From positions 1 through 64,000 of the IMG/VR virus record IMGVR_UViG_3300022699_000293: a DNA stretch of 64,000 nt; one strand, given 5' to 3'. The translations under genes were made by a program, and so were the position numbers. Each line of letters starts with the position of its first letter. The stretch's first letter is position 1. Origin of the DNA: a virus. Below are positions 6,006 to 38,917 of this stretch, in pieces. The notes beneath the pieces are model-generated. The model made no database searches and had not been told where the DNA came from. It worked only from the letters and a program-made list of their open reading frames with translations.

Positions 6006-7433
6006 TTAGTAGAGAAAATTGTAATTTTGGTGGGAGCTATTAGGGTGGTAGGGGGACACAGTTTTTTCACACAAATTCAAATGACGGTATACTTGAAAAA
6101 CATCTTGAAGGGAAGATACGTTAAAATTCCATGGGAGAAATGTCTTGGCGGACCCCCAATAATAAGAAACGAAAAGGGAGCTTTCTTTATTTAATCTTTC
6201 AATATAGCGAAATGGATAACTTGTTGATCTCCATCCTTGACGCCGTGTAGGACTAAAGGAATGTGTTAATAGTTCTAGTAGGGTAGCTTTTATATTAACT
6301 GGAAGTCTAGTAGGATTTACTTGACAATTTTTTTGACTTGGTACGTAAGTGTCTAACCATTTTTTAGCGATTTTAAAATTAGTAGTGTAGCGTTTAAGTG
6401 GATATGCTTCAGAATGTATTGGTAAAAGTGCAAAAGCTAGTGTGTGAGGTTTTTTAGTAGAGGCAGGATGATACTGTAAAGATGCGACATATTTTCGTCG
6501 ATTTATTCGTTTTTCTAATACCCCACTATGAGTTAACAAGTATTGTATCTGCGCGTCTGTAAAAGGAACGTTTGCTTGTTTTATTACTTTTCTATTTAAT
6601 TGATTAGGAGTGTAAGGGTAGTATCCTGTACAGGACACAAGATCTGACGCGCATGCATCACAAGCAGATGGTTCAAACATAGCACAACGTGGGCAAATTT
6701 CTTTTTGAAGTAAATCGCGATTTTTTCGTGTTTGTGTTGCGGTTTTACGTTGATTTTTATTTTCAGGAATTTGGTGGAAGTCACAAAGTGTTACGTGGCG
6801 AATTGCTGCAGAAGCAGTTGTGTCTGACGTCATGCTTCCTCCTACAGCTACAAAATTTCCAATTTTGGTTTGGTTAAGTTTTACGTTGTCTAAAAAATCA
6901 TCGTAATCCCCGACGAGAGTGTAAGCTTCTTCTTGTAATCCTACTTGGCGTACAGGTAAACAAAGTTTAGAGGGATCCCAAGGTCTATCAAAGGATAATG
7001 CAGGACACTCAGAACAACCGTGTGTGTATTTTTCAGGCAAAGCGCATTCCTTATAAAACTCTTCTCCTTTTTTGGTAATAATTTTTTCTGGAGTTACGAC
7101 GGTTATAGGATAGTTAGAGCTTTCTGCTAATTTTTGTAGCATAAATTTGTTAGACAAGTAAGGAGTAGCTATTAAAGCATGGCGTAATAAAGCGTCATTT
7201 TGACGTGTGTAAAAATGTAAGTTTGAGTTTACTGTGTATTTAATCGGGAGTATTATGAAATACGGGCTTAGTAGTTTAGCTGTTAACGGGTGTTTAGCGA
7301 TGTCTGAATGGTGTGTTGATTCTTCTAAATTTAGAGGAGGAGATTCGCTATCTCCACTAAAAAGTAAACAAAGTGGTCCTTCTGATCCAGACACAAAGAA
7401 ACGGTTGAGCGAAGCGGGCACAAAGTATAACAT
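6006..7433 (-). CDS. Cys-rich hypothetical protein immediately downstream of the RT
   Basis: GGAGG RBS before ATG 7433 (ORF track starts at GTG 7460); Cys clusters CSECP and CPRC...CDAC...C. Confidence 0.7.
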   Translation of the reverse strand: MLYFVPASLNRFFVSGSEGPLCLLFSGDSESPPLNLEESTHHSDIAKHPLTAKLLSPYFIILPIKYTVNSNLHFYTRQNDALLRHALIATPYLSNKFMLQKLAESSNYPITVVTPEKIITKKGEEFYKECALPEKYTHGCSECPALSFDRPWDPSKLCLPVRQVGLQEEAYTLVGDYDDFLDNVKLNQTKIGNFVAVGGSMTSDTTASAAIRHVTLCDFHQIPENKNQRKTATQTRKNRDLLQKEICPRCAMFEPSACDACASDLVSCTGYYPYTPNQLNRKVIKQANVPFTDAQIQYLLTHSGVLEKRINRRKYVASLQYHPASTKKPHTLAFALLPIHSEAYPLKRYTTNFKIAKKWLDTYVPSQKNCQVNPTRLPVNIKATLLELLTHSFSPTRRQGWRSTSYPFRYIERLNKESSLFVSYYWGSAKTFLPWNFNVSSLQDVFQVYRHLNLCEKTVSPYHPNSSHQNYNFLY

Positions 7434-7456
7434 GCAAAAATACCTCCAATGATTTC

Positions 7457-8593
7457 TCACGTAGAAGATTTGTAACGCTCTAAAGCAAATTGAAATTCTT
7501 CTAATAGAGGGGCTCCTCGACGAGCATCGATTTGGTTGAAGATATTCAATTTACCGCGTAAATGTTGTATAAACTTTTCTGTAGATGTGTAGTTGGCACG
7601 ATGTGCTTGTTGCGGAATATCGGTGATAGCACAGTTGTGCACCATTGCTCGAAGTTTTTTATAGTCTGTTTTTGCAATGCTGGGCTTTTTATCGATAACT
7701 ATTCCCAACATACGTGTTCTGTGTTGCGGACCTGTAATTCTAGTTTTTCTAGGATTTACCCAGTATCCTGACTGGTTTACAAGATTCGTAATATCCTGGA
7801 TAATTGTTTTACGTTCACTTTTCGGATATTCGATACCGCAGGACAAAGTCAGATCGTCCGCATAGCGTCCATATACCCATTTAAAAGTTTCTTTAGATAT
7901 GTATTTATTCTTCTCGGATAAGTATTGAAGTATGCGTCGATCTAATTTCTGGTTGGCAACCAAGTTACAAATAGCTCCTGAAGTGGGGGCTCCCTGAGGT
8001 ATTCCTTCATGTGAAATTTTACGTGTTCTAGAATTGTGAATAGGTACAGTCATAAGGTTAGCTAACAAACCGCTAACGTAAAAAGAGTATCCTAAAGATT
8101 GAAAATAGTGTCGTATCCAAGCCCGGCGCGTGTTAGGAAAGAAATTTTTGAGATCCATTTGAATAAAAGTTCCTCTACGAGGACAATCATGTGTGTGGGG
8201 TGAGGGCATTTTAGCTGGAGGAGCATTGTCACAGACAGGACAGGGAGGTAAATGACGCAAAGCTGCGTCCTTGATAGAGTGCCCAGGACGATACGCTGTA
8301 ACATGGTTACCCAATTGTTCTTGCAAAGGATTTAAGATACGAGTGTTTATGCGCTTTAAAAAAGATTTCATTAAAGGTGTAGGGTCATGAAGTGTACGAA
8401 ATTTTCCCGGCGTTTTTTTAGGGATTTTCGAAATACGATACTGTTGGTTTTTGGTGGTAAGTAAATACCATAAAGTTTTAGTTCGATATCCCAGAAAGAA
8501 AGCTAAAGTACAGTCATCAATAATAAAGGGTGCCGGGGATTTTAAAGAAGGTATGGAGATAATATCTAACGTAGTATTTTTAAATCCTACCAT
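7457..8593 (-). CDS. retron-like reverse transcriptase with Zn-finger insertion
   Basis: IPKK..GKFR.L..P, AYRPG.SI..AA..H (region X-like), MDLKNFFP, PQGAPTSG.I.N, Y.RYADDL, VNPRKT, MLG (region Y position); strong GAGGAGG RBS. Confidence 0.9.
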   Translation of the reverse strand: MVGFKNTTLDIISIPSLKSPAPFIIDDCTLAFFLGYRTKTLWYLLTTKNQQYRISKIPKKTPGKFRTLHDPTPLMKSFLKRINTRILNPLQEQLGNHVTAYRPGHSIKDAALRHLPPCPVCDNAPPAKMPSPHTHDCPRRGTFIQMDLKNFFPNTRRAWIRHYFQSLGYSFYVSGLLANLMTVPIHNSRTRKISHEGIPQGAPTSGAICNLVANQKLDRRILQYLSEKNKYISKETFKWVYGRYADDLTLSCGIEYPKSERKTIIQDITNLVNQSGYWVNPRKTRITGPQHRTRMLGIVIDKKPSIAKTDYKKLRAMVHNCAITDIPQQAHRANYTSTEKFIQHLRGKLNIFNQIDARRGAPLLEEFQFALERYKSST

Positions 8594-9208
8594 TTATACC
8601 TCCTCGTTTTTTGAAAGGGAATTTAATGAAATAGTTAATTGCATGCTATCTCTACATATTGATCTACCAGGAGAACAGCCGTTAGCATAGTAACGGGACA
8701 TATGTTTGCATACCGCACATACAGCAGGGATATTTTTTTTCGGCGTATGTAGCGTGATTGCTGGGAGGTTTGTGTTTAGGTTGTGCAGGTCAATAATAAT
8801 TCTAGACAAGGAATAGGCTAATTGGGGAAAAGAACGGTTGGTTGTTTTATCTTTATTAAAAACAATATAAGTAGGAATAACCAGTAACCACTCATGGGGT
8901 GTTAAAGTAATATTTTTTCCTAACCCCTGATGTTCATAGCTTATATATTCGTACTCCAACAAGGTACTACGGGGAATAGTAATGTTTCGACGGTATTCTA
9001 AATTGAGCCCTTGTAGTGCATGATATAAGGAAGTTGAAAGAGGTGTAATTAAACTATGAGGAAACAAGGAAAACGCCATTTCTTGTTGCGAGGTAGGAAC
9101 CAAATAAACACGGTCAAAGGGGAAGTAATCAAAAGAATGCAGCGGATTATCTGCTTTCTTTTTTCTTAACCGTGTTTGGTGTATTTTTACGCAGTAAATT
9201 TGAGTCAT
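8594..9208 (-). CDS. hypothetical protein with C-terminal Cys motif, abutting the RT start
   Basis: 204-aa ORF; stop codon directly adjacent to the RT ATG; CAVC...GCSPG...C. Confidence 0.7.
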   Translation of the reverse strand: MTQIYCVKIHQTRLRKKKADNPLHSFDYFPFDRVYLVPTSQQEMAFSLFPHSLITPLSTSLYHALQGLNLEYRRNITIPRSTLLEYEYISYEHQGLGKNITLTPHEWLLVIPTYIVFNKDKTTNRSFPQLAYSLSRIIIDLHNLNTNLPAITLHTPKKNIPAVCAVCKHMSRYYANGCSPGRSICRDSMQLTISLNSLSKNEEV

Positions 9209-9218
9209 ACACGTTTCC

Positions 9219-10754
9219 TTAGTCGTCGATTTTTAAAACGATATCTCCCATATGCGCATTTTCTTTTCCGCTATTTGTAAGAATCCAGATAAAGGGACAA
9301 GGAGGTGTAAGTTCAGGCATTGGACCGCCTTGAGATGAGTGTACTGGAGCATATCCATCGGTAAAGTTTACAAACAAATCTGTGCGTGGGAGGGTGCGTG
9401 TCAAACGTTCTGCACCATTAACCCAATCTTCATCTTTGTCTAACTGCAACATACGTCTGAAAGGAGGACAAAAGTTTGTCCCACCATACCCATGACGTGT
9501 ACAATAATTTGTAATTTCTTCGTCAGCTTCAATTAAGAATTCTTTTTGTAATCCTGCGTCATACAATAATATTCGCGTAGTAACAGATTCGTTGCTTTTC
9601 ATTATTCCTTGAATCTCACTCATAAATTTGATGAAATCTTCGTCAGAAACAGACCCGGAAGTATCGATAGCTACAGTAATGAAAAAGCTAAAGTCCTTTT
9701 GCATACCAGGAAAAGGTTCGATTCCTTGGGATTGTCCTGTAGTCAGTATTCCCATGTGGGGCCAAGCCGTCGATTCTGCAAGTTTAGATGAGATACTGGA
9801 TTTCAAGAAATTACGAAGAATTTCGTACCAGGGTAGTGTCGGTTCTGACAAAAGATCATCAATAATGCCTTGTACAGATCCTGGGAGCGTACCTCGACTT
9901 TTATGTGTCTGTTGTGCGGCTTTCTTTGTTATGCGCTTAGCTTCTCGTTTGGCTCTATCTATAATGCGCTCTGCTTCTGCTTCGGTCATATGATCTAACA
10001 GATCTTCCCAACGAATATGTTGTGGCATGATACTACCGCGCACATCTTTAAGCCATTGAGGTGCTTGATTTACGGGTTGTGAAGATTTTTGATTTGTGTC
10101 TGGAGAGCTAGATTCTTTACCTTGTGCATTACCGTCTGAATTGGAACCATCTCCTTCAGAAGGAATAGGAATTCCGCTATCCACGAAGATAGGTGTTCCG
10201 TTTGCGTCAGTTTCTTGTTGGTAAGGTGAGTAGCTATCTGTTTCACATTTGTCTAGAAGTAAAGACAAGTATTCGTCAAAGGATTTACCTTCAGGGAAAT
10301 TGTAAGGATCATTTTCAGGAAACAGTAAAGTTTTGTGATGTTTTCGAAAATTAGAAAGTTCCATAAAGCTTCTTAAGGAAATGTCATTGGCAGCAAAATC
10401 CTGTGCCATATTTACGATTGGCATTAATTGTGCCCACTGGTATTCATGTTTGCAGAATTGTTTGTACCGCATCCCTCGGATTAAATGTTGTAATACGATG
10501 TGTGTAGCTTCGTGGATGACGACCAAGATACGCAAAGGAGTATCAATCGAACTAAAGAATTGAGGATCCCAAAGAAATTGATACTTACCTTCTTGCGTTA
10601 AGGATACAGCAGCGGTACCTAAGTTGTTAACGGCACGACGACCACAACCATTGAGCACGCGACCCCAAAAGTTGTTGCCTCCGCGAGGAGAACAGGCCCA
10701 TTGAAGCACTTGTGAAAGTGCTTTTTCAGGGTCATCATTAGTGTTGCTTTGCAT
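9219..10754 (-). CDS. DUF2201-type metallopeptidase-like plus vWA domain protein
   Basis: HExxH (HEATH), RGTLPG, MIDAS DTSGS, GGTNF, FTDGY; GGAGG RBS before ATG 10754. Confidence 0.88.
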   Translation of the reverse strand: MQSNTNDDPEKALSQVLQWACSPRGGNNFWGRVLNGCGRRAVNNLGTAAVSLTQEGKYQFLWDPQFFSSIDTPLRILVVIHEATHIVLQHLIRGMRYKQFCKHEYQWAQLMPIVNMAQDFAANDISLRSFMELSNFRKHHKTLLFPENDPYNFPEGKSFDEYLSLLLDKCETDSYSPYQQETDANGTPIFVDSGIPIPSEGDGSNSDGNAQGKESSSPDTNQKSSQPVNQAPQWLKDVRGSIMPQHIRWEDLLDHMTEAEAERIIDRAKREAKRITKKAAQQTHKSRGTLPGSVQGIIDDLLSEPTLPWYEILRNFLKSSISSKLAESTAWPHMGILTTGQSQGIEPFPGMQKDFSFFITVAIDTSGSVSDEDFIKFMSEIQGIMKSNESVTTRILLYDAGLQKEFLIEADEEITNYCTRHGYGGTNFCPPFRRMLQLDKDEDWVNGAERLTRTLPRTDLFVNFTDGYAPVHSSQGGPMPELTPPCPFIWILTNSGKENAHMGDIVLKIDD

Positions 10755-10772
10755 TCTTTTTCCTCCTATAAT
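10744..10772 (+). promoter_or_regulatory. sigma70-like promoter for the 10805 gene
   Basis: TTGCTT-17 nt-TATAAT, overlapping the divergent vWA RBS and start. Confidence 0.6.
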
Positions 10773-10804
10773 GTGATTGAGAAACAAGAAAGAGGTGTAT
10801 TCTC

Positions 10805-31950: not shown

Positions 31951-32003
31951 GAAATTTACCTTACACTTTGTTGAAGGTTGGATGGTTACAGGAGAGTAAG
32001 TAC

Positions 32004-33743
32004 ATGGCAAACGAATTTAATACTAGCGATCCCTACTTGTTTACAGGTCGTCGCAATGTAGCGCCACATAGTAATCCTTATCACAGCTATACACAAGTTT
32101 TTAGTCCAAGACGTTTAAAAGACTTGTTTAAATGGTGTGAGTTTTTATTTGCTAATTCTGCCCATATCTATGCTGCTTTGCGGAAATTTGGGGAATACCC
32201 TATTACTGAAATTTTATACGAAACAAATAATGAAACACTTAAAACCAAACATAAAAATATTTTAGAAAAAATTATACACATTCGTGAATTGCTTATTGAA
32301 ATGACCTTAGATAAATACGTGTATGGGAATGCTTTTCTTTCCATGTACCAACCATTTATCCGCTTTTTAAAATGTACTAAATGTCAAACATTGACGAACA
32401 TTCAAAATGTTAAATATGAGTATAATTACCAAGCAATGAAGTTCACGTATGAGTGTCCTGCGTGTCATAAAAAAGTCGTTGCTACAGAAAAACATATTAT
32501 AGATCGAAAAGTTTCGGTTAGTCGCAAAATTAATTTTATTCGATGGGATCCTAAAAAAATAGATATCGACCATAACCCCCTAACAGGAGCTTCAGTTTAT
32601 TATTACAATATTCCAGAATCTGTAAAAGAAAGCGTAAAAAAAGGACATAAGTTTTTAATAGACAGTATGCCTTTAGGCTTTTTGAAAGCAATAAAAGAAA
32701 AACAACAATTCAGATTTGCTCCTGGATATATTTTTCATATGAAGATAGGAGGTCCCGCAGGTATTAATCCGCAATGGGGACTGCCTCCGTTACTTTCGAC
32801 ATTACAATTGTTCCATTATACCGCTATTTTAAGAAAAGCTAACGAAGCTATTTCTCTGGATTATTTAACTCCTCTTCGTATTGTCCACCCAGCACCGCAA
32901 AGTGGTAACGCAGATCCTGTCACTACAATTAGTTTACAAGAGTGGCAACAAAACTTAAAAGGAAATATAAAGGATTGGAGACAAGATCCTTTACATATGA
33001 TGTTTGCACCTGTTCCTGTAGGAATGACGCAAGTAGGGGGACAAGGACGAGCATTATTAACTTTAGGAGAAGTGCAAGAAGCGGAAAAAAATATTGTAGC
33101 CGCTTTAGGAATTCCTCTAGAATTTCTTTACGGAGGCTTAACGCGAAGTGGTATGGAAGCTACTTTAAGATTAATAGAGAATCAATTAGAGACACACATT
33201 AGTGATTTGAATGACTGCATACAATGGATATCTGATAATTGTGCTAAGTTTTTGGGTTATGATAAAGTTTCTATGGAATTAGCCCCGTTCCGGATGATCG
33301 ACGACCAAACACAAAAGAATATTTCGTTACAATTATACCAAGCAGGACACCAACTAGGTCGGAAAATAATTTCGGAAAAAACCATAGCAGAACAGAACAA
33401 CTTGGATTTAGACAAAGAAGAAGATCGCATCAAACAAGAAGAGCTGGATGCTGTGCGGCGTGATGCAGAATTGCAAATCGAGATAAGTAAGCTACAAAAC
33501 AACATGGCAAATCGAATTAGGCAAGAAACCCAACAAAGCGAAATGGCTATGGGTGGTGGTGGTGCTCCTACAGGTTATAACCAACAACAAGTAATTGCAC
33601 AAGCTGATCAACTTGTAGCACAATGGGCACAAATGGAAGAAGGGAGACGTAAAAGTATGATGGATTCTTTAATGAAAGAAGACTTCGTGTTGTACTCTGT
33701 AGCTATGCAACGTTGGGAAGACTTTGAACAACAACAACAATAA
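32004..33743 (+). CDS. putative portal protein with Zn-ribbon insertion
   Basis: YVYGNAF, WDP..I, WGLPPL, IVAALGIPLEFL portal-like motifs; size and position; GGAGAG RBS before ATG 32004. Confidence 0.6.
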   Translation: MANEFNTSDPYLFTGRRNVAPHSNPYHSYTQVFSPRRLKDLFKWCEFLFANSAHIYAALRKFGEYPITEILYETNNETLKTKHKNILEKIIHIRELLIEMTLDKYVYGNAFLSMYQPFIRFLKCTKCQTLTNIQNVKYEYNYQAMKFTYECPACHKKVVATEKHIIDRKVSVSRKINFIRWDPKKIDIDHNPLTGASVYYYNIPESVKESVKKGHKFLIDSMPLGFLKAIKEKQQFRFAPGYIFHMKIGGPAGINPQWGLPPLLSTLQLFHYTAILRKANEAISLDYLTPLRIVHPAPQSGNADPVTTISLQEWQQNLKGNIKDWRQDPLHMMFAPVPVGMTQVGGQGRALLTLGEVQEAEKNIVAALGIPLEFLYGGLTRSGMEATLRLIENQLETHISDLNDCIQWISDNCAKFLGYDKVSMELAPFRMIDDQTQKNISLQLYQAGHQLGRKIISEKTIAEQNNLDLDKEEDRIKQEELDAVRRDAELQIEISKLQNNMANRIRQETQQSEMAMGGGGAPTGYNQQQVIAQADQLVAQWAQMEEGRRKSMMDSLMKEDFVLYSVAMQRWEDFEQQQQ

Positions 33744-33763
33744 TAAAGTTAAAAGGCAAGTAC

Positions 33764-34333
33764 ATGGTTAAGGACACACGACAAGATTCAACTTTTGCAA
33801 CTTTGGTTCAATCAGCAAGAGACAAACCTCCTCGCATGTCTCAAGAAACAGAGATTCCTTCTTTATTTTCGCCACCATCCGACGATTCTTCAAAAGATTC
33901 GTTTGTAGCTAAAGAATTAACAAACAATAAACCTGGACGACAAATACGTCTTGTAAGTTTTACGCGTACTTTTGTATTGTGGCGTCCTTGGGAAAAATGT
34001 TCTCGATGTTTGGAAATGTTAAAACAGGGAGAAATAGAATTACCTTCAATAGGGGATATGACTTGCCCCCATGTACAGCTTGCGGAGTATAAAGAAATTA
34101 AAGATGCTGTTCTCAGAGGTGACGGTATTAAAGAATTTGAAGAATACTTTCAATTACATGACGGTACTCGATGTGTTCAATTTTCTTGGTTGGAAGCTGA
34201 TCCAGAATTTTTAGAAAAAATGAAAAAAGAAGCTCAAAAAAACAAGGATAGCGTGTACCCACCAAACCCTGAAAAAGTTTTTAACCAAAAAGAGGAGGAG
34301 ACTCCGAATAATGATTCTGAAGTCTCCTCCTGA
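33764..34333 (+). CDS. hypothetical protein (189 aa)
   Basis: ORF after portal; CSRC...CPH. Confidence 0.65.
   Translation: MVKDTRQDSTFATLVQSARDKPPRMSQETEIPSLFSPPSDDSSKDSFVAKELTNNKPGRQIRLVSFTRTFVLWRPWEKCSRCLEMLKQGEIELPSIGDMTCPHVQLAEYKEIKDAVLRGDGIKEFEEYFQLHDGTRCVQFSWLEADPEFLEKMKKEAQKNKDSVYPPNPEKVFNQKEEETPNNDSEVSS
34287..34331 (-). terminator. intrinsic terminator-like hairpin oriented for a minus-strand transcript
   Basis: AGGAGGAGACT (34293-34303) / AGTCTCCTCCT (34321-34331); the minus strand continues CTTTTT. Confidence 0.55.
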
Positions 34334-34483
34334 CGGTTCTGGGGTGAGTTTGTCGACGGTTCTTAGGGATTTTTCAGACTACTTAAATAGTCTGAAGAAT
34401 TCCCACAGGAGTTCGACAATCACCCCAGGCTTTTCGCCAGCATTCCCATTTTTATCCTCCTTGTAAAAAGCCGTCTACCGTCA
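34331..34483. ncRNA. candidate structured non-coding element with a 90-nt hairpin
   Basis: Nested inverted repeats CTGGGGTGA/TCACCCCAG, TTGTCGA/TCGACAA, TTCAGACTA/TAGTCTGAA (34339-34428); GGCTTTT/AAAAGCC; outer TGACGGT/ACCGTCA. Confidence 0.55.
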
Positions 34484-34555
34484 TCTTCTTTTACCAAAAT
34501 GTCTTTTCGAATCTGAAAGAATGTTCTATACTTGAACCGTTCAGAAGGAGAGCAA

Positions 34556-37500
34556 ATGCCTAAGCTAACACCTTTGATGATAGGTCCAGATCAACGTAGA
34601 ACTCTTATTCACGAAAAAGTGAAAGAGGGTTTGAATGAATCATTTCCTATACAGTCTCGGAATAAGACATTGGAAGTGAAAGATCTTCGCATAATAAATA
34701 AAGACTATACGCCGACAGAACAGAAACGCGCAATTCTTTCTGGAGATTCTCTCTTTGAATCTGTTAAAGGAACTGTAAGTATAAAAGATAAGAAGGGTAA
34801 AATTTTAGATGAAGCCAAAAACTTTACTTTAGTCCGAATTCCTTATTTTACTCCTCGACATACTTTTATCATTGGGGGTAACGAACATTCTGTTTCTAAT
34901 ATGGTACGTCGTAAACCGGGAGTTTATTCTCGTAAAAGAGCTAATGGTATTTTAGAGGCAGGGTTTAACACCATCGGAGGATCTAATTTTCGAGTAAGCA
35001 TGGATCCTTCTAAAGGACAGCCACAATTAGAATACGGGTCGACTAAAATTCCATTATATCCTATTTTACGTAAATCTGGAATTTCTCACGACAATATAGC
35101 TAAAGCGTGGGGGTCTAAATTAGCAGATATTAATGAAAAAGAACTATCTTCTAAAACAGACAGATATATTGATAAGTTATATAACAAAGAAATTCCTCCT
35201 TATTTTAGAGACGAAACAAAAACTTCTCAGGAAAAAATGGAGGATATTTTAACACGTTATAAAGATGCTAAAATGGATCCTGAAGTTAATCAAAAAACTT
35301 TAGGACGTCCTCACACGCATGTTACTCCTGACAGTTTGCTGGACGCGTCTACTCGTGTATTGAAAATATTTAACAAAGAAGAAGACGTGGACGATCAAGA
35401 TAATTTGGGCTTTAAAACATTAATGTCTGTTGATGATTTTTTTAAAGAGCGTATAAAATTACACGCTAGAAACGTTGCTAATAAAACAGCGATAAAAATG
35501 GAAAGAACCCCGCAACTTAAGAAAGCATTACCTCCAGGCCCATTTACAAAAGATCTGTTACAATTTATTTCTACTTCCTCTTTGTCTTCAATTCCAGATC
35601 AAACTAACCCTGTGGATTTGATTGACTCAGCTATGAGAGTAACGTCTTTAGGTGAAGGTGGAATCTCAACTGAACGTGCTATTCCTATCGAAGCTCGACA
35701 AACCCATGTAACTCAAATGGGTGCTTTAGATCCTATTAGAACACCAGAATCTAGTCGTGCCGGTATTGATGTAAGAGCTGCAGTAACAGCTCAACGAGAT
35801 GAAAATGGAGATATCTACGTTCCTGTTTACGACGTAAAAAGTCAACGAGAAAAATACATTAAAGCAGGTCACCTCCAGGACTCTGTTGTAGCTTTTGCGA
35901 ACCAACCCTTGAAAGGGTCTGTTGAGGCTGTCGCACGAGGTGTTGTTCGTCGTGTACCTGCACGAGAAGTAGACTACCAAATACCGCACCAATCTCGTTT
36001 ATACAGTGCTACAACAAACTTAATTCCTTTTTTGGAATCGGCACAAGGCAATCGAGCTGTAATGGGTTCGAAAATGCAAGTGCAAGCGTTATCCTTGGTT
36101 AATCGTGACGCTCCTTATGTTCAAGTTGCGACGCCTTCACAAAAATCTTTCGAACGAATGATAGGTAAGATTGTTAATCCCCATTCTCCAGTATCAGGCA
36201 CTGTTAAAAAAATAGATAATGATTACATTTACGTGTTGCCCGACCAAGAAAAACAAGCCGCAATTAACAAAGCTATTAAAATTCCTTATGACAATAATTT
36301 TCCGTTAGCTACCAAAACATATTTAAATCATGATTTGTTTGTCAAACCTGGAGATAAAGTTAAGAAGGGTCAAACTTTAGGTACTTCTAATTTTACTAAA
36401 AATGGGGTTTTGGCACTAGGTAAGAACATGAGTGTTGCTTACATGCCGTATTACGGAAAAAATTCTAATGATGCGGTAGTGATTAGCGACAAAGCAGCAA
36501 AAAACTTAACGTCTGAACGTATGTATAAAATCGTAGTACCTCAAGAACCCAACTTAACTTTAAACCAAAACAAACATAAAACGTATTACGGGCATAGATA
36601 TAAAAAGGATCAATATAGAAGGTTAGACAAAGATGGAGTAATCGAAGCAGGTACTAAATTAACTCCACACGACCCATTGGTGGTAGGTGTTCGAAAAACT
36701 GAATTATCTCCGGATGACTTAATACTAGGACGATTGCATCGTTCTCTTGCAAACCCTTACAAAGAATTTAAACACGAGTGGGATCACGATTATGAAGGAG
36801 AAGTTGTAGATGTAGTCAAAACACCTAAACGTGTAACCATGACAGTTAAAACACGAGAACCTGCACGAATAGGAGACAAGTTAAGTGGGCGTTTTGGGAA
36901 TAAGGGGGTTGTTTCTGAAATCATTCCTCAAGATGAAATGGTTAAGGATGAGGCTGGAAAGCCTATTGATATTATTATGACTTCCGCTGGTGTTGTGTCA
37001 CGAATTAATCCTAGCCAAATTATAGAAACAGCGGTAGGGAAAGTTGCTGAAAAAACAGGAAAACCAATTATTGTAGATAACTTTACTAGAAAAGATAATG
37101 TTAAATGGGCAAGAAAATTATTAAAAGAACATGATTTAAAAGATAAGGAAACTGTTTACGATCCAAAATCAGGAAAAAAAATTCCTAACATTATGGTAGG
37201 TCGTCAATATCTTTATAAGTTATCTAAATCTACTGATACAAATTATAGTGCTCGAAGTATGGGTACTTATGACATGAATATGCAACCAACTCGGGGAGGA
37301 ATTCAAGGAGCTAAGGCTTTAGGCAAAATGGAATTCGATGCTTTGCTAGGTCATAATGCACGCAATATTTTAAGAGAAGCTGCTACAGTTAAAAGTCAAA
37401 AGAATGATGAATTTTGGCGTGCTATTCAACTAGGTCAAATGCCTCCTACACCAAAATCTATTTTTGCTTACGATAAATTTCTCAACATGTTGAAAGGTGC

Positions 37501-38917
37501 AGGTGTTCGCGTAGACCGCGAAGGTAGTAAAATGTCTTTAGCCCCCCTTACGGACAAAGATGTTACTGAAATGTCTTCCGGTGAAATCAAAGATGCTAAG
37601 ATAGTACGCGCCAAGGATTTACGTCCGGAAACCGGAGGTTTGTTTGATCCGGGAATAACTGGAGGTTTACGAGGAACTCGCTGGTCTCATATTTCTTTGG
37701 CTGAACCTATAATTAACCCTGTATTTAAAGAACCTGTTAGGCGGTTACTAGATATGTCTAACGCACAATTGACAGATACGCTAAAAACTAAAGGAGGAAA
37801 TCATATTAAAAAAGAATTGGGTAAGATTGATTTGGATGCTAAAGAAAAAGAGCTTAAACGACAATTAAAGAAAAAGAATCCAAGTCAAGTAGATAATTCT
37901 TTAAAACAAATAAAATACATACGCGCATTAAAAAAATTAAATTTAAAACCTGATGAAGCGTATACAATGACGAAAGTACCCGTTGTTCCGCCGGTGATTC
38001 GTCCTGTAGTACCCGGTAAAGGTGGGACACAACTTGTTTACGGTGATGCCAATCCTTTATACCAAGATTTGATTTATATTAATAATCAAATGAAAGAAAT
38101 AAAGGATCCTAAAAATCCTACACCTCCGGGTGAAGAAGAAAAACTTAGACCTTCATTGCAACAAGCTGTAGGCGCAGTTTATGGGACTGATGAGCCCGCC
38201 ACAGCAAAATCTCGAGGACGAAAGCATAAAGGTTTTTTAACTTATATCTCGGGAGAGGGAGGACCAAAGCATGGATTTTTTCAATCAAAGTTGATGTCTC
38301 GAGCTCAAGATATGGCTGGGAGAGGAACAATTGTTCCTGACAGTACTTTGGGAGTAGATGAGATTGGCGTACCTGAAGAAATGCTATGGACGATGTACCG
38401 AGATTTTATCATCAGGGGCTTAGTTCAAAAAGGTTTTCCGGCTATCCAAGCTCGTCAAATGGTGGAAGACAAACATCCAGCTGCAAAAGATACGCTAAAC
38501 CGAATTATTAAGGAACGTCCTGTATTAATGAACCGCGCACCTACGTTACACAGGTACAACATTGTAGGAGCTAAACCTGTACCTGTACCAGGACGTACAT
38601 TACGAGTTAATCCTTTTATAGAAGCGCATATGAATGCAGATTATGACGGAGATGCAATGACCCTACATGTTCCCATCTCGCCTGCTGCTGTTAAAGAAGC
38701 GGAGGATATTACGCTTTCTAAACTTTTATACGGGGATAAAACCAAAAATGACTTATTAGTTTTCCCACAGCACGAAGCGATAATGGGGATACACCAAGCT
38801 AGTGGCGCGGACGATAAGAATACAATACCTAAAAAATTTAAAAATCAGGGTGAAGCAATAGCAGCTTACAAACGTGGAGAAATTGGACTAGGAACTCGGG
38901 TAACTATTGGAAATTAA
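34556..38917 (+). CDS. multisubunit RNA polymerase: beta fused to the N-terminal half of beta' (contains the catalytic motif)
   Basis: beta: IPYFT..F.IGG.E, DPIRTPE, NRAVMGSKMQ.QA, GDKLSGRFGNKGVV, GKMEFDAL; beta': GGLFD, HI.LAEP, PVVPP..RP, NRAPTLHR, NADYDGD; AAGGAG RBS before ATG 34556. Confidence 0.93.
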   Translation: MPKLTPLMIGPDQRRTLIHEKVKEGLNESFPIQSRNKTLEVKDLRIINKDYTPTEQKRAILSGDSLFESVKGTVSIKDKKGKILDEAKNFTLVRIPYFTPRHTFIIGGNEHSVSNMVRRKPGVYSRKRANGILEAGFNTIGGSNFRVSMDPSKGQPQLEYGSTKIPLYPILRKSGISHDNIAKAWGSKLADINEKELSSKTDRYIDKLYNKEIPPYFRDETKTSQEKMEDILTRYKDAKMDPEVNQKTLGRPHTHVTPDSLLDASTRVLKIFNKEEDVDDQDNLGFKTLMSVDDFFKERIKLHARNVANKTAIKMERTPQLKKALPPGPFTKDLLQFISTSSLSSIPDQTNPVDLIDSAMRVTSLGEGGISTERAIPIEARQTHVTQMGALDPIRTPESSRAGIDVRAAVTAQRDENGDIYVPVYDVKSQREKYIKAGHLQDSVVAFANQPLKGSVEAVARGVVRRVPAREVDYQIPHQSRLYSATTNLIPFLESAQGNRAVMGSKMQVQALSLVNRDAPYVQVATPSQKSFERMIGKIVNPHSPVSGTVKKIDNDYIYVLPDQEKQAAINKAIKIPYDNNFPLATKTYLNHDLFVKPGDKVKKGQTLGTSNFTKNGVLALGKNMSVAYMPYYGKNSNDAVVISDKAAKNLTSERMYKIVVPQEPNLTLNQNKHKTYYGHRYKKDQYRRLDKDGVIEAGTKLTPHDPLVVGVRKTELSPDDLILGRLHRSLANPYKEFKHEWDHDYEGEVVDVVKTPKRVTMTVKTREPARIGDKLSGRFGNKGVVSEIIPQDEMVKDEAGKPIDIIMTSAGVVSRINPSQIIETAVGKVAEKTGKPIIVDNFTRKDNVKWARKLLKEHDLKDKETVYDPKSGKKIPNIMVGRQYLYKLSKSTDTNYSARSMGTYDMNMQPTRGGIQGAKALGKMEFDALLGHNARNILREAATVKSQKNDEFWRAIQLGQMPPTPKSIFAYDKFLNMLKGAGVRVDREGSKMSLAPLTDKDVTEMSSGEIKDAKIVRAKDLRPETGGLFDPGITGGLRGTRWSHISLAEPIINPVFKEPVRRLLDMSNAQLTDTLKTKGGNHIKKELGKIDLDAKEKELKRQLKKKNPSQVDNSLKQIKYIRALKKLNLKPDEAYTMTKVPVVPPVIRPVVPGKGGTQLVYGDANPLYQDLIYINNQMKEIKDPKNPTPPGEEEKLRPSLQQAVGAVYGTDEPATAKSRGRKHKGFLTYISGEGGPKHGFFQSKLMSRAQDMAGRGTIVPDSTLGVDEIGVPEEMLWTMYRDFIIRGLVQKGFPAIQARQMVEDKHPAAKDTLNRIIKERPVLMNRAPTLHRYNIVGAKPVPVPGRTLRVNPFIEAHMNADYDGDAMTLHVPISPAAVKEAEDITLSKLLYGDKTKNDLLVFPQHEAIMGIHQASGADDKNTIPKKFKNQGEAIAAYKRGEIGLGTRVTIGN

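What the first reader, a model, noticed from the sequence alone, without database searches (positions are those of the whole stretch)
34287..34500. Antisense-terminated ~200-nt structured element with a 90-nt hairpin directly upstream of the RNAP gene
Seen on the minus strand, 5' to 3': TGACGGT, then AG, then a ~45-nt stem (GGCTTTT...AAAAGCC) enclosing AAGGAGG and a 9-codon ORF start (MGMLAKSLG*). Next come a 90-nt imperfect hairpin (34339-34428), ACCGTCA complementary to the first 7-mer, and an 11-bp GC-rich hairpin with a U tract. All flanking genes are on the plus strand, so a minus-strand terminator implies a separate small transcript. The order (inverted repeat + AG, short structured region, long hairpin, inverted repeat) matches retron msr-msd, making it a candidate trans-acting template for the orphan RT 26 kb away. 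Alternatives: an antisense regulator, a cruciform origin or packaging signal, or a hairpin promoter for the phage RNAP. The outer repeat is only 7 bp, and wobble pairs in the long hairpin favour the plus-strand sequence, which would be the cDNA strand in the retron model.
Basis: partly seen in the sequence, partly recalled or inferred. Interest (0 to 1): 0.8.

Follow-up and report, generated by a model that had tools for sequence, protein, structure and literature searches.

The report
Tiny conserved phage peptide gene, not retron
The folded ~195-base element upstream of this phage's RNA polymerase gene is the messenger RNA of a very small, evolutionarily conserved peptide gene with its own promoter and terminator, not a template for the phage's distant reverse transcriptase.

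Summary
The structure is real: three hairpins closed by a 7-bp helix, and no shuffle folds as well (z about -6 on both strands). The retron reading does not hold.

About 60 related uncultured jumbo-phage contigs carry a compact minus-strand unit at the same spot. It has a TGGTAHAAG promoter box, a strong Shine-Dalgarno and a 9-21-codon hydrophobic ORF. The ORF core is M-[VIL]-I-polar-x-hydrophobic-x-hydrophobic-[LF]. A terminator usually follows.

- **Coding:** the ORF is under protein-level selection (pN/pS 0.24; differences at codon positions 1/2/3 = 31/12/65).
- **Promoter:** the box belongs to a multi-copy, strand-consistent class. In this genome it also precedes the tmRNA and a tRNA cluster.
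- **Window clade:** the conserved ORF (GTG 34423, 14 codons) forms the 5' arm of the "90-nt hairpin" (-45 kcal/mol). This suggests translation gated by upstream-ORF coupling.
- **RT link:** the micro-gene occurs in a complete genome with no RT. RT-bearing relatives outside the window clade lack the retron-like fold.

What the peptide does is unknown. The scan had noted this same stretch once before, read from an overlapping window.

The parts
34486..34497 (-). Promoter box TTGGTAAAAGAA (extended -10-like, TG-n-TAAAAG). The predicted transcription start is about 34483-34480.
   Evidence: A G[GT]TANAAG box lies within 140 nt of the RNAP start, in the same orientation, in all 98 distinct RNAP-upstream regions. 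KGGTAHAAG is multi-copy and strand-consistent in complete relatives (0/10, 0/10, 6/0). All 10 G011 sites are intergenic and followed by SD+ATG. In this genome the motif precedes the tmRNA and tRNA-Asn. No RNA data are available, so the start site is inferred.
34477..34483 (-). 5' arm of the closing helix (TGACGGT), at or next to the predicted 5' end of the RNA.
   Evidence: It pairs with 34331-34337 in the MFE and centroid folds. The core GACG/CGTC is invariant in the window, L016 and L015, so there is no covariation in it.
34428..34472 (-). Hairpin 1, carrying the Shine-Dalgarno AAGGAGG (34456-34462) and the upstream-ORF ATG in its weakly paired upper part.
   Evidence: AAGGAGG sits at the same place in L016 and L015.
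34420..34449 (-). Its sequence is not conserved, but it ends in GGG-TGA in all three clade members, overlapping the GTG of the next ORF (GUGA).
34379..34423 (-). Conserved micro-ORF: GTG start, 14 codons plus stop. The peptide is MIVELLWEFFRLFK if GTG is read as Met. It belongs to the family-wide M-[VIL]-I-polar-x-hydrophobic core.
   Evidence: Homologous ORFs occur in 63 loci (56 distinct). pN/pS is 0.24, and codon-position differences are 31/12/65 with chi-square p = 2e-9. Ile at codon 3 is written with ATC/ATT/ATA. The ORF is present in 54 of 54 distinct loci with RNAP at 56% identity or more.
34339..34428 (-). Long hairpin. Its 5' arm is the upstream-ORF stop plus the micro-ORF, and its 3' arm is non-coding complement. 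It buries the GTG start.
   Evidence: It folds at -45.3 kcal/mol, z -9.2. The same arrangement is seen in L016 and L015, with some two-sided changes. The minus strand is the more stable one in L016 and L015.
34331..34337 (-). 3' arm of the closing helix (ACCGTCA). It overlaps the TGA stop of the convergent 189-aa gene.
34287..34331 (-). Intrinsic terminator of the minus-strand unit (stem 34331-34293, T run 34291-34287). It also encodes the C-terminal tail of the plus-strand gene 33764-34333.
   Evidence: It folds at -24.7 kcal/mol, z -5.8. It persists under every ribosome-occupancy constraint tested. A hairpin plus T run follows the micro-ORF in at least 42 of 60 distinct loci.
34525..34533 (+). 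TCTATACTT: a likely -10 region (TATACT) of the divergent promoter of the RNAP gene. This is context, not part of the minus-strand unit.
   Evidence: It is conserved between the minus-strand promoter box and the RNAP start in many relatives. There is a single exact copy in the window. Its role is inferred only.

Best explanation
The element is a stand-alone micro-gene, transcribed leftward away from the RNA polymerase operon.

The RNA. A promoter of the phage's TGGTAHAAG class starts an RNA of about 195 nt near 34483. An intrinsic terminator ends it at about 34288. The RNA is the mRNA of a 14-residue amphipathic peptide. This peptide belongs to a family of 9-21-residue hydrophobic peptides found at this position throughout a clade of uncultured ~175-200 kb phages.

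The gating, in the window's own sub-clade (inferred from structure, not demonstrated):
- The conserved ORF has no Shine-Dalgarno of its own.
- Its GTG start lies inside a -45 kcal/mol hairpin.
- The strong AAGGAGG instead serves a 9-codon upstream ORF whose stop overlaps that GTG (GUGA).
- Ribosomes translating the upstream ORF would melt the foot of the hairpin. They would then reach the micro-ORF by termination-reinitiation, or by a -1 slip on G-GGG-UGA.

The closing helix. The 5'-3' helix most likely stabilises the RNA.

The peptide's role (guess). It most likely acts as a small hydrophobic effector. A cis-acting nascent-peptide role is the main alternative.
For: Comparative anatomy:
- Promoter box, SD and micro-ORF occur in the same order and place in 63 loci. 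A terminator follows in at least 42 of 60 distinct loci.
- The micro-ORF is present in 54 of 54 distinct loci with RNAP at 56% identity or more, and in 9 of 43 more distant ones.

Coding:
- Across 16 disjoint pairs, pS is 0.389, pN is 0.095 and pN/pS is 0.24.
- Differences by codon position are 31/12/65, p = 2e-9.
- Ile at codon 3 is written with three synonymous codons.
- The register from the initiator Met is conserved.
- The antisense plus-strand frame has no start codon and is less conserved.

Promoter:
- The motif is multi-copy and strand-consistent in complete relatives.
- All 10 G011 sites are intergenic and followed by SD+ATG.
- In this genome it drives the tmRNA and tRNA genes.

Gating:
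- GUGA overlap and a buried GTG occur in all three clade members.
- The hairpin folds at -45.3 kcal/mol.
- The upstream ORF sequence is not conserved but its position is.
- L130 has the same peptide type with its own SD and no upstream ORF.
Against: - There is no transcript, ribosome-profiling or peptide evidence of any kind.
- The -10 box ends in G, which is unusual for sigma-70, so which polymerase or sigma factor reads it is unknown.
- The rule used to pick the ORFs favoured Ile at codon 3 and hydrophobic residues. Those two features are partly built in, though the pN/pS and codon-position tests are not.
- Only three distinct sequences carry the window-type fold, so covariation support is thin. 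The closing-helix core never varies.
- Peptides of 9-14 residues are too short for a membrane helix, and no function can be assigned.
- The promoter class also drives stable RNAs here, so the RNA itself could be the active product.
Confidence: 0.7

Rival explanations
1. Retron-like msr-msd RNA. The closed RNA would be a trans-acting template that the retron-type RT at 7460-8593 primes from a branching G and copies into a ~90-nt ssDNA.
For: - The topology matches superficially: terminal 7-bp inverted repeat, an AG after it, a short hairpin, a long hairpin, then the second repeat.
- The RT is retron-type by profile (PADLOC RT_III-A/RT_XIII at 1e-54) and has no room for an adjacent ncRNA.
- The only window-clade relative whose contig reaches that far (G003) has both the RT and the fold.
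Against: - The 5' arm of the 'msd' is a conserved ORF under purifying selection, with an SD-led upstream ORF coupled to it.
- The unit lies 26 kb from the RT with its own promoter and terminator, whereas retron ncRNA is contiguous and co-transcribed (PMC7736814).
- The micro-gene family occurs in complete genome G013, which has no RVT_1 match.
- Five RT-bearing relatives have transcripts without the closing helix plus separate long hairpin.
- The region after the closing helix is not conserved.
- There is no Rfam match.
Confidence: 0.03
2. The RNA is the main actor. It would be a structured regulatory RNA (dual-function or cis-antisense) whose small ORF is secondary. For example, it could pair with read-through plus-strand RNA between the 189-aa gene and the RNAP gene, or act in trans.
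For: - The same promoter class drives stable RNAs in this genome: tmRNA, tRNAs and an ~80-nt terminator-ended RNA.
- The RNA is very stable, with a closed 5'-3' helix.
- There is no plus-strand terminator after the 189-aa gene, so read-through RNA would be fully complementary.
- Distant relatives keep the promoter box without a micro-ORF.
Against: - Selection acts on the amino-acid sequence.
- Most relatives have a minimal SD-ORF-terminator unit of 100-130 nt with little else.
- No convincing complementarity to the RNAP translation start was found.
- The elaborate fold is confined to one sub-clade.
Confidence: 0.15
3. Cis-acting leader peptide. Translation, or nascent-chain arrest, on the micro-ORF would control termination, RNA stability or expression of genes downstream on the minus strand.
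For: - A short ORF directly precedes a terminator.
- In L058, L059 and L061 the micro-ORF stop overlaps the ATG of a longer minus-strand gene.
- The register is conserved from the initiator Met, with a 9-residue minimal core.
Against: - In the window the terminator persists under every ribosome position, and no antiterminator exists.
- The next gene is convergent, so there is nothing to regulate.
- ORF-to-downstream complementarity is not a family trait (mean z -0.41).
Confidence: 0.07
4. Plus-strand or DNA-level element: an RNase III-type processing hairpin, or a leader of the RNAP mRNA, or a replication origin, packaging site or hairpin promoter.
For: - The long hairpin is slightly more stable on the plus strand in the window (-49.1 against -45.3).
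- CCUCCUU in the plus-strand RNA could mask the RNAP SD (pairs I11 and I17).
Against: - In L016 and L015 the minus strand folds better.
- The likely RNAP promoter lies downstream of the element.
- The T tract follows the hairpin only on the minus strand.
- The cumulative GC-skew minimum is near 30 kb, not here.
- Cultured distant relatives have no spacer at all.
Confidence: 0.04

Closest known systems
Leader-ORF translational coupling into a masked start (IncFII tap/repA, IncI-alpha/IncB repY/repZ, hok/mok). Named from established knowledge, not tested here.
   Same: - A short leader ORF with its own SD ends at or over the start of the next ORF.
- That start is buried in a stable helix.
- The leader's sequence is free to vary while its position is fixed.
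- As in hok mRNA, the 5' end pairs with the 3' region.
   Different: - The gated product is only 14 residues.
- No antisense RNA partner (CopA or Sok type) was found.
- The element sits in a lytic-type jumbo phage next to the RNAP operon.
- There is no evidence of toxicity.
Retron msr-msd ncRNA (Mestre et al. 2020, PMC7736814)
   Same: Terminal inverted repeats close the RNA. A short hairpin comes first and a long hairpin second. A retron-type RT is present in the same genome.
   Different: - It is not contiguous with the RT.
- It carries a conserved, SD-served coding frame in the long hairpin.
- It has its own promoter and terminator.
- The family occurs without the RT, and the RT occurs without the fold.
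Leader-peptide transcription attenuators (trpL, hisL, pheL, ilvL types)
   Same: A promoter, a very short hydrophobic ORF and an intrinsic terminator lie within about 200 nt.
   Different: There is no alternative antiterminator fold and no downstream gene in the same direction. The peptide is conserved by position rather than enriched in one regulatory amino acid.
Dual-function RNAs that encode small peptides (S. aureus RNAIII/hld, psm-mec, B. subtilis SR1/SR1P). Named from established knowledge.
   Same: A highly structured RNA with its own promoter and terminator carries a tiny ORF for an amphipathic or hydrophobic peptide.
   Different: No base-pairing target is known here. The peptide is shorter. 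The conserved part across the family is the ORF, not the RNA fold.

Membership tests
Retron msr-msd ncRNA | The ncRNA gene is contiguous with, and co-transcribed with, its RT. | tested here: not met
   The RT is at 7460-8593 (-) and the element at 34287-34497 (-), 26 kb apart with many genes on both strands between them. The element has its own promoter box and terminator. The feature is as described in PMC7736814.
Retron msr-msd ncRNA | Inverted repeats at the two ends hybridise (a1/a2). | tested here: met
   There are 7 bp in the window. A 4-bp core GACG/CGTC is kept in L016 and L015 without covariation.
Retron msr-msd ncRNA | A conserved branching G follows a1. | tested here: inconclusive
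   A G follows the helix in the window (34475). The few bases after the helix differ between the window and L016/L015. Priming cannot be tested here.
Retron msr-msd ncRNA | msd is a long non-coding stem-loop that serves only as template. | tested here: not met
   The 5' arm is the conserved micro-ORF, with pN/pS 0.24 and third-position bias.
Retron msr-msd ncRNA | The ncRNA co-occurs and co-evolves with the RT. | tested here: not met
   The micro-gene is in complete RT-less genome G013. RT-bearing G006-G010 lack the retron-like fold.
Retron msr-msd ncRNA | Production of msDNA. | not testable with these tools
   This needs co-expression and detection of a branched RNA-DNA.
Leader-peptide transcription attenuator | Mutually exclusive antiterminator and terminator folds, set by ribosome position. 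| tested here: not met
   The terminator stays intact in all constrained folds.
Leader-peptide transcription attenuator | Regulated genes lie downstream in the same orientation. | tested here: not met
   The next gene (33764-34333) is convergent. Only some distant relatives have a downstream minus-strand gene.
Leader-ORF coupled translation (tap/repA, mok/hok type) | The leader stop overlaps or abuts the start of the gated ORF. | tested here: met
   GUGA at 34423-34420 in the window, and the same in L016 and L015.
Leader-ORF coupled translation (tap/repA, mok/hok type) | The gated start is sequestered in a stable secondary structure. | tested here: met
   The GTG lies in a -45.3 kcal/mol hairpin. 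It is equally buried in L016 and L015.
Leader-ORF coupled translation (tap/repA, mok/hok type) | Translation of the gated ORF depends on leader translation. | not testable with these tools
   This needs reporter fusions with the leader start removed.
Type I toxin-antitoxin | A small hydrophobic membrane toxin, usually a transmembrane helix of about 19 residues or more. | tested here: inconclusive
   Family lengths are 9-21 residues. The window peptide has 14 residues, four of them charged, which is too short for a membrane span. Toxicity was not tested.
Type I toxin-antitoxin | A dedicated antisense RNA antitoxin. | not tested
   No promoter-class box was seen on the plus strand inside the element. 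Read-through plus-strand RNA would be antisense.

The most novel reading that the evidence does not exclude
The 9-21-residue 'M-[VIL]-I' peptide is a genuine trans-acting phage effector. It would be one of the smallest conserved autonomous genes known in any virus. It is kept next to the RNA polymerase operon across a family-level clade of jumbo phages, and in this lineage it is released only through an upstream-ORF-operated RNA gate.

One lead from memory, untested: the shortest members end in a motif resembling bacterial sliding-clamp-binding pentapeptides.
Probability: 0.4. Interest if true: 0.6.

Novelty: new member of a known kind. Interest (0 to 1): 0.42.

Why it matters
**What it removes.** It takes away an attractive but wrong lead, a trans-acting retron template in a phage.

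**What it adds.** In its place is a concrete, testable object: an unannotated micro-gene that ordinary gene callers cannot see because it has only 9-21 codons. It is conserved, under protein-level selection, in every examined member of a large clade of uncultured jumbo phages. A defined promoter class shared with the phage's tmRNA and tRNA genes drives it.

**Why the peptide matters.** If the peptide is an effector, it extends the lower size limit of conserved phage genes. The window's version would also give a compact natural example of translation gated by upstream-ORF coupling into a very stable hairpin.

**Open question left behind.** The conserved retron-like RT module in these phages still has no known template.

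Tried and rejected
- **Known RNA families.** Rfam at gathering threshold over the whole window, and at E up to 10 over 34150-34650, gave only sub-threshold generic hairpin hits. There is no tRNA or tmRNA in the window.
- **Sequencing runs.** None was listed for 33000-36000. This is not evidence either way.
- **Cultured phages, DNA search.** There was no DNA match.
- **Cultured phages, protein search.** It found only distant relatives: Salmonella phage Arash and Vibrio phages D69, D181 and D148, at 32-34% RNAP identity. In Arash and D69, the two records examined, the RNAP gene abuts the upstream genes; Arash, the one scanned for it, lacks the CTTNTACC box.
- **Plus-strand 51-aa ORF (34311-34466).** Rejected. 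The homologous frame has no start codon in the window, and it is less conserved than the minus frame.
- **Classic attenuation.** Rejected by constrained folding.
- **ORF masked by a downstream complement as a family trait.** Rejected. Mean z is -0.41 and 7 of 49 reach p <= 0.05. It holds for only some clades, including the window's.
- **Promoter box as a unique site.** I first took it to be unique. That is true only for the 12-mer. The 9-mer is a multi-copy promoter class.
- **Downstream minus-strand genes in distant relatives.** No Pfam match.
- **Paralogous micro-genes in the 87-kb genome.** None convincing.
- **Template next to the RT.** The four genes abut or overlap and are all conserved as proteins. 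There are no TR/VR-type repeats.
- **RT co-occurrence inside the window clade.** It could not be broken, because four of five contigs end before the RT position.

Full report
**Context**

The window is the first 64 kb of an 87,130-bp IMG/VR virus record, estimated about half complete.

- The gene downstream of the element (34556-38914) is a fusion of RNA polymerase beta and the N-terminal part of beta'. A PrimPol/LigD-like gene follows, then the rest of beta'.
- The genes upstream (31968-33743 and 33764-34333) are on the plus strand and have no family match.
It scores as retron-type (PADLOC RT_III-A and RT_XIII, about 1e-54; NCBIfam retron models below cut-off).
- The RT sits in a tightly packed four-gene module with no spacer for an RNA gene.

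**Observation**

See the observation check for coordinates.

- Fold energies are far beyond shuffles: z -6.4 for the 256-nt stretch, -9.2 for the long hairpin and -5.8 for the terminator.
- Both strands fold about equally well in the window. Strand assignment therefore has to come from elsewhere.
- Only the minus strand has the T tract after the GC hairpin.

**Relatives**

Searches with the RNAP N-terminus returned 122 loci, giving 97 distinct upstream regions plus the window, at 42-79% identity. Several contigs are 172-198 kb, and some are complete with terminal repeats.

Read on the minus strand, the spacer in front of the RNAP gene has the same layout in all 54 distinct loci at 56% identity or more, and in 9 of 43 more distant ones:

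- a box (T/G)GGTA-N-AAG;
- often a small 5' hairpin 20-76 nt further on, then a strong Shine-Dalgarno;
- an ORF of 9-21 codons;
- usually a GC hairpin with a T run (at least 42 of 60 distinct loci by a crude test).

**The ORF is coding**

- The 50 distinct peptides share an ungapped register from the initiator: M, then V/I/L, then Ile in 48 of 50. Next come a polar residue (R/T/E/Q), any residue, a hydrophobic residue, any residue, I/L, then L/F in 43 of 50. The shortest members are exactly this 9-residue core.
- Ile-3 is written ATC 33 times, ATT 16 times and ATA 5 times.
- In 16 phylogenetically disjoint equal-length pairs, synonymous differences per site are four times the non-synonymous ones (pS 0.389, pN 0.095, ratio 0.24).
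- The 108 differences fall 31/12/65 on codon positions 1/2/3 (chi-square p = 2e-9).
- My selection rule rewarded Ile-3 and hydrophobicity, so those frequencies are partly circular. The substitution tests are not.
- The codon-aligned plus-strand frame would put most changes at its first position. It lacks a start codon in the window.

**The box is a promoter**

- In three complete high-GC relatives the 9-mer occurs 10, 10 and 6 times, always on one strand (controls 0-5).
- All ten G011 sites lie in spacers, mostly just after terminator-like hairpins. An SD and ATG follow 15-70 nt later.
- In the window's own genome the same box lies 31 nt before the tmRNA (Rfam 100 bits) and 32 nt before tRNA-Asn.
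- With an identical 13-mer, it also lies before another ~80-nt terminator-ended RNA.
- The minus-strand unit therefore starts about 34483-34480, at the 5' arm of the closing helix. The start is inferred from position only. The box ends in G, which the sigma-70 scan rejects.

**What is special in the window**

In the window, L016 and L015/L019 (RNAP 78-79% identical), the homologous ORF starts with GTG (M-I-V/I-E-L-L-W-E-F-F...) and has no SD of its own.

- The AAGGAGG instead precedes a 9-12-codon ATG ORF. That ORF's sequence is not conserved, but it always ends GGG-TGA, so its stop overlaps the GTG.
- The GTG and most of the micro-ORF form the 5' arm of the long hairpin (-45.3 kcal/mol in the window).
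- The hairpin, a 5'-3' closing helix and a terminator recur in L016 and L015, with different terminator sequences and some two-sided changes in the hairpin. With three sequences this is descriptive only, and the 4-bp helix core never varies.
- In L016 and L015 the minus strand folds clearly better than the plus strand.
- L130, a further relative with the same peptide type, has its own SD and no upstream ORF. L092 and L023 have a separate mini-ORF plus a second SD and an anti-SD after the micro-ORF.
- Constrained folding shows that the terminator forms whatever the ribosome covers. This is not an attenuator.
- The simplest reading is coupling: only ribosomes that have read the upstream ORF can open the hairpin foot and start, or slip -1 on G-GGG-UGA, into the micro-ORF. 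This step is inferred.

**Retron test**

The defining features are taken from Mestre et al. 2020 (PMC7736814).

- Contiguity with the RT fails.
- The 'msd' is coding.
- The family exists in the complete, terminally redundant genome G013. That genome has no match to the RT protein or to Pfam RVT_1, while the control G006 is positive.
- The RT is conserved at 41-46% identity in G006-G010, at a syntenic place. Their micro-gene RNAs (116-178 nt in the five examined) lack a closing helix plus separate long hairpin.
- Within the window's own sub-clade, RT and fold cannot be separated. Only one contig reaches the RT position, and it has both. The retron reading keeps a small residual probability for this reason.

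**Function**

- Shown: a conserved, autonomously organised micro-gene.
- Inferred: transcription from the class promoter, and upstream-ORF gating in this clade.
- Guess: what the peptide does.

In L058, L059 and L061 the micro-ORF is the first cistron of a divergent operon, with stop and start overlapping. In most lineages it stands alone before a terminator, which argues for a role of its own.

The window peptide is a 14-residue amphipathic sequence, and many relatives are plainly hydrophobic. All are too short for a membrane span. I commit to a trans-acting small hydrophobic effector as most likely. The alternatives are a cis-acting nascent-peptide role and an RNA-level (dual-function or antisense) role.

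**Unexplained**

In many of the most distant relatives (for example L098, L101 and L103-L135), the same box sits in the same orientation between the upstream plus-strand gene and the RNAP ATG. There is no micro-ORF behind it.

**Earlier notes of this scan**

- A second first-reader note on the same stretch, from an overlapping window, also saw a hidden minus-strand unit.
- Another note remarks that the RT has no room for a cis ncRNA.
- Neither had been followed up.

Noticed in passing
window 6006-10787 (-): The retron-type RT (7460-8593) sits in a four-gene module: a DUF2201/VWA-like protein, a 204-aa protein, the RT and a 484-aa protein. The genes abut or overlap. The RT is kept at 41-50% identity in six related contigs. 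Its flanking genes are recognisably conserved in most of those contigs. The RT is absent from complete relatives G011 and G013. It has YADD, AALRH and MLG where retron RTs have VTG, plus a Cys/His-rich insert. Its template is still unknown.
   Followed up: partly
genome G000:C1 73646-74071 and 77761-77875 (beyond the window; locus L166): The promoter box TGGTA[AC]AAG lies about 31 nt upstream of a phage tmRNA (Rfam 100 bits) and of tRNA-Asn. Eleven tRNA genes lie in 74.4-79 kb. A TTGAAA lies 13-15 nt upstream of the box at both sites, so these look like extended -10 promoters with an unusual G at the last -10 position.
   Followed up: partly
genome G000:C1 about 71790-71885 (-), beyond the window: Another small unit shares the identical 13-mer TGGTAAAAGAAGA. 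It gives a structured RNA of about 80 nt ending in a GC hairpin and a T run, with no SD or ORF. It is a candidate small RNA.
   Followed up: no
loci L098, L101, L103-L135 (distant relatives): The promoter-type box sits in the same orientation directly between the stop of the upstream plus-strand gene and the RNAP ATG (for example CTTGTACCAAAATG on the plus strand). There is no micro-ORF. This could be an antisense promoter, a remnant or a second function.
   Followed up: no
window 34287-34333: The last 13 codons and the stop of the plus-strand 189-aa gene are written by the minus-strand terminator hairpin and the 3' arm of the closing helix. In relatives this C-terminal tail varies together with the terminator.
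   Followed up: partly
L112 and the window micro-ORF: The micro-ORF frame is codon-aligned antisense to an acidic plus-strand frame. In L112 an ORF that starts M-V-I and exceeds 30 codons runs antisense to the acidic tail of the upstream gene. Antisense of Glu/Asp codons gives Phe/Leu/Val/Ile, so this may hint at how the hydrophobic micro-ORF arose.
   Followed up: no
window 34525-34533 (+): TCTATACTT (-10-like TATACT) is conserved between the minus-strand promoter box and the RNAP start in many relatives, at variable spacing (10-35 nt). It is probably the divergent RNAP promoter.
   Followed up: partly
L144 (Salmonella phage Arash) and L145 (Vibrio phage D69): These are the nearest cultured relatives of this RNAP (32-34% identity). 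A portal gene (annotated as such in Arash) and a small gene overlap the RNAP start, with no spacer. Arash is described as an orphan phage (PMC10585845, title only).
   Followed up: partly
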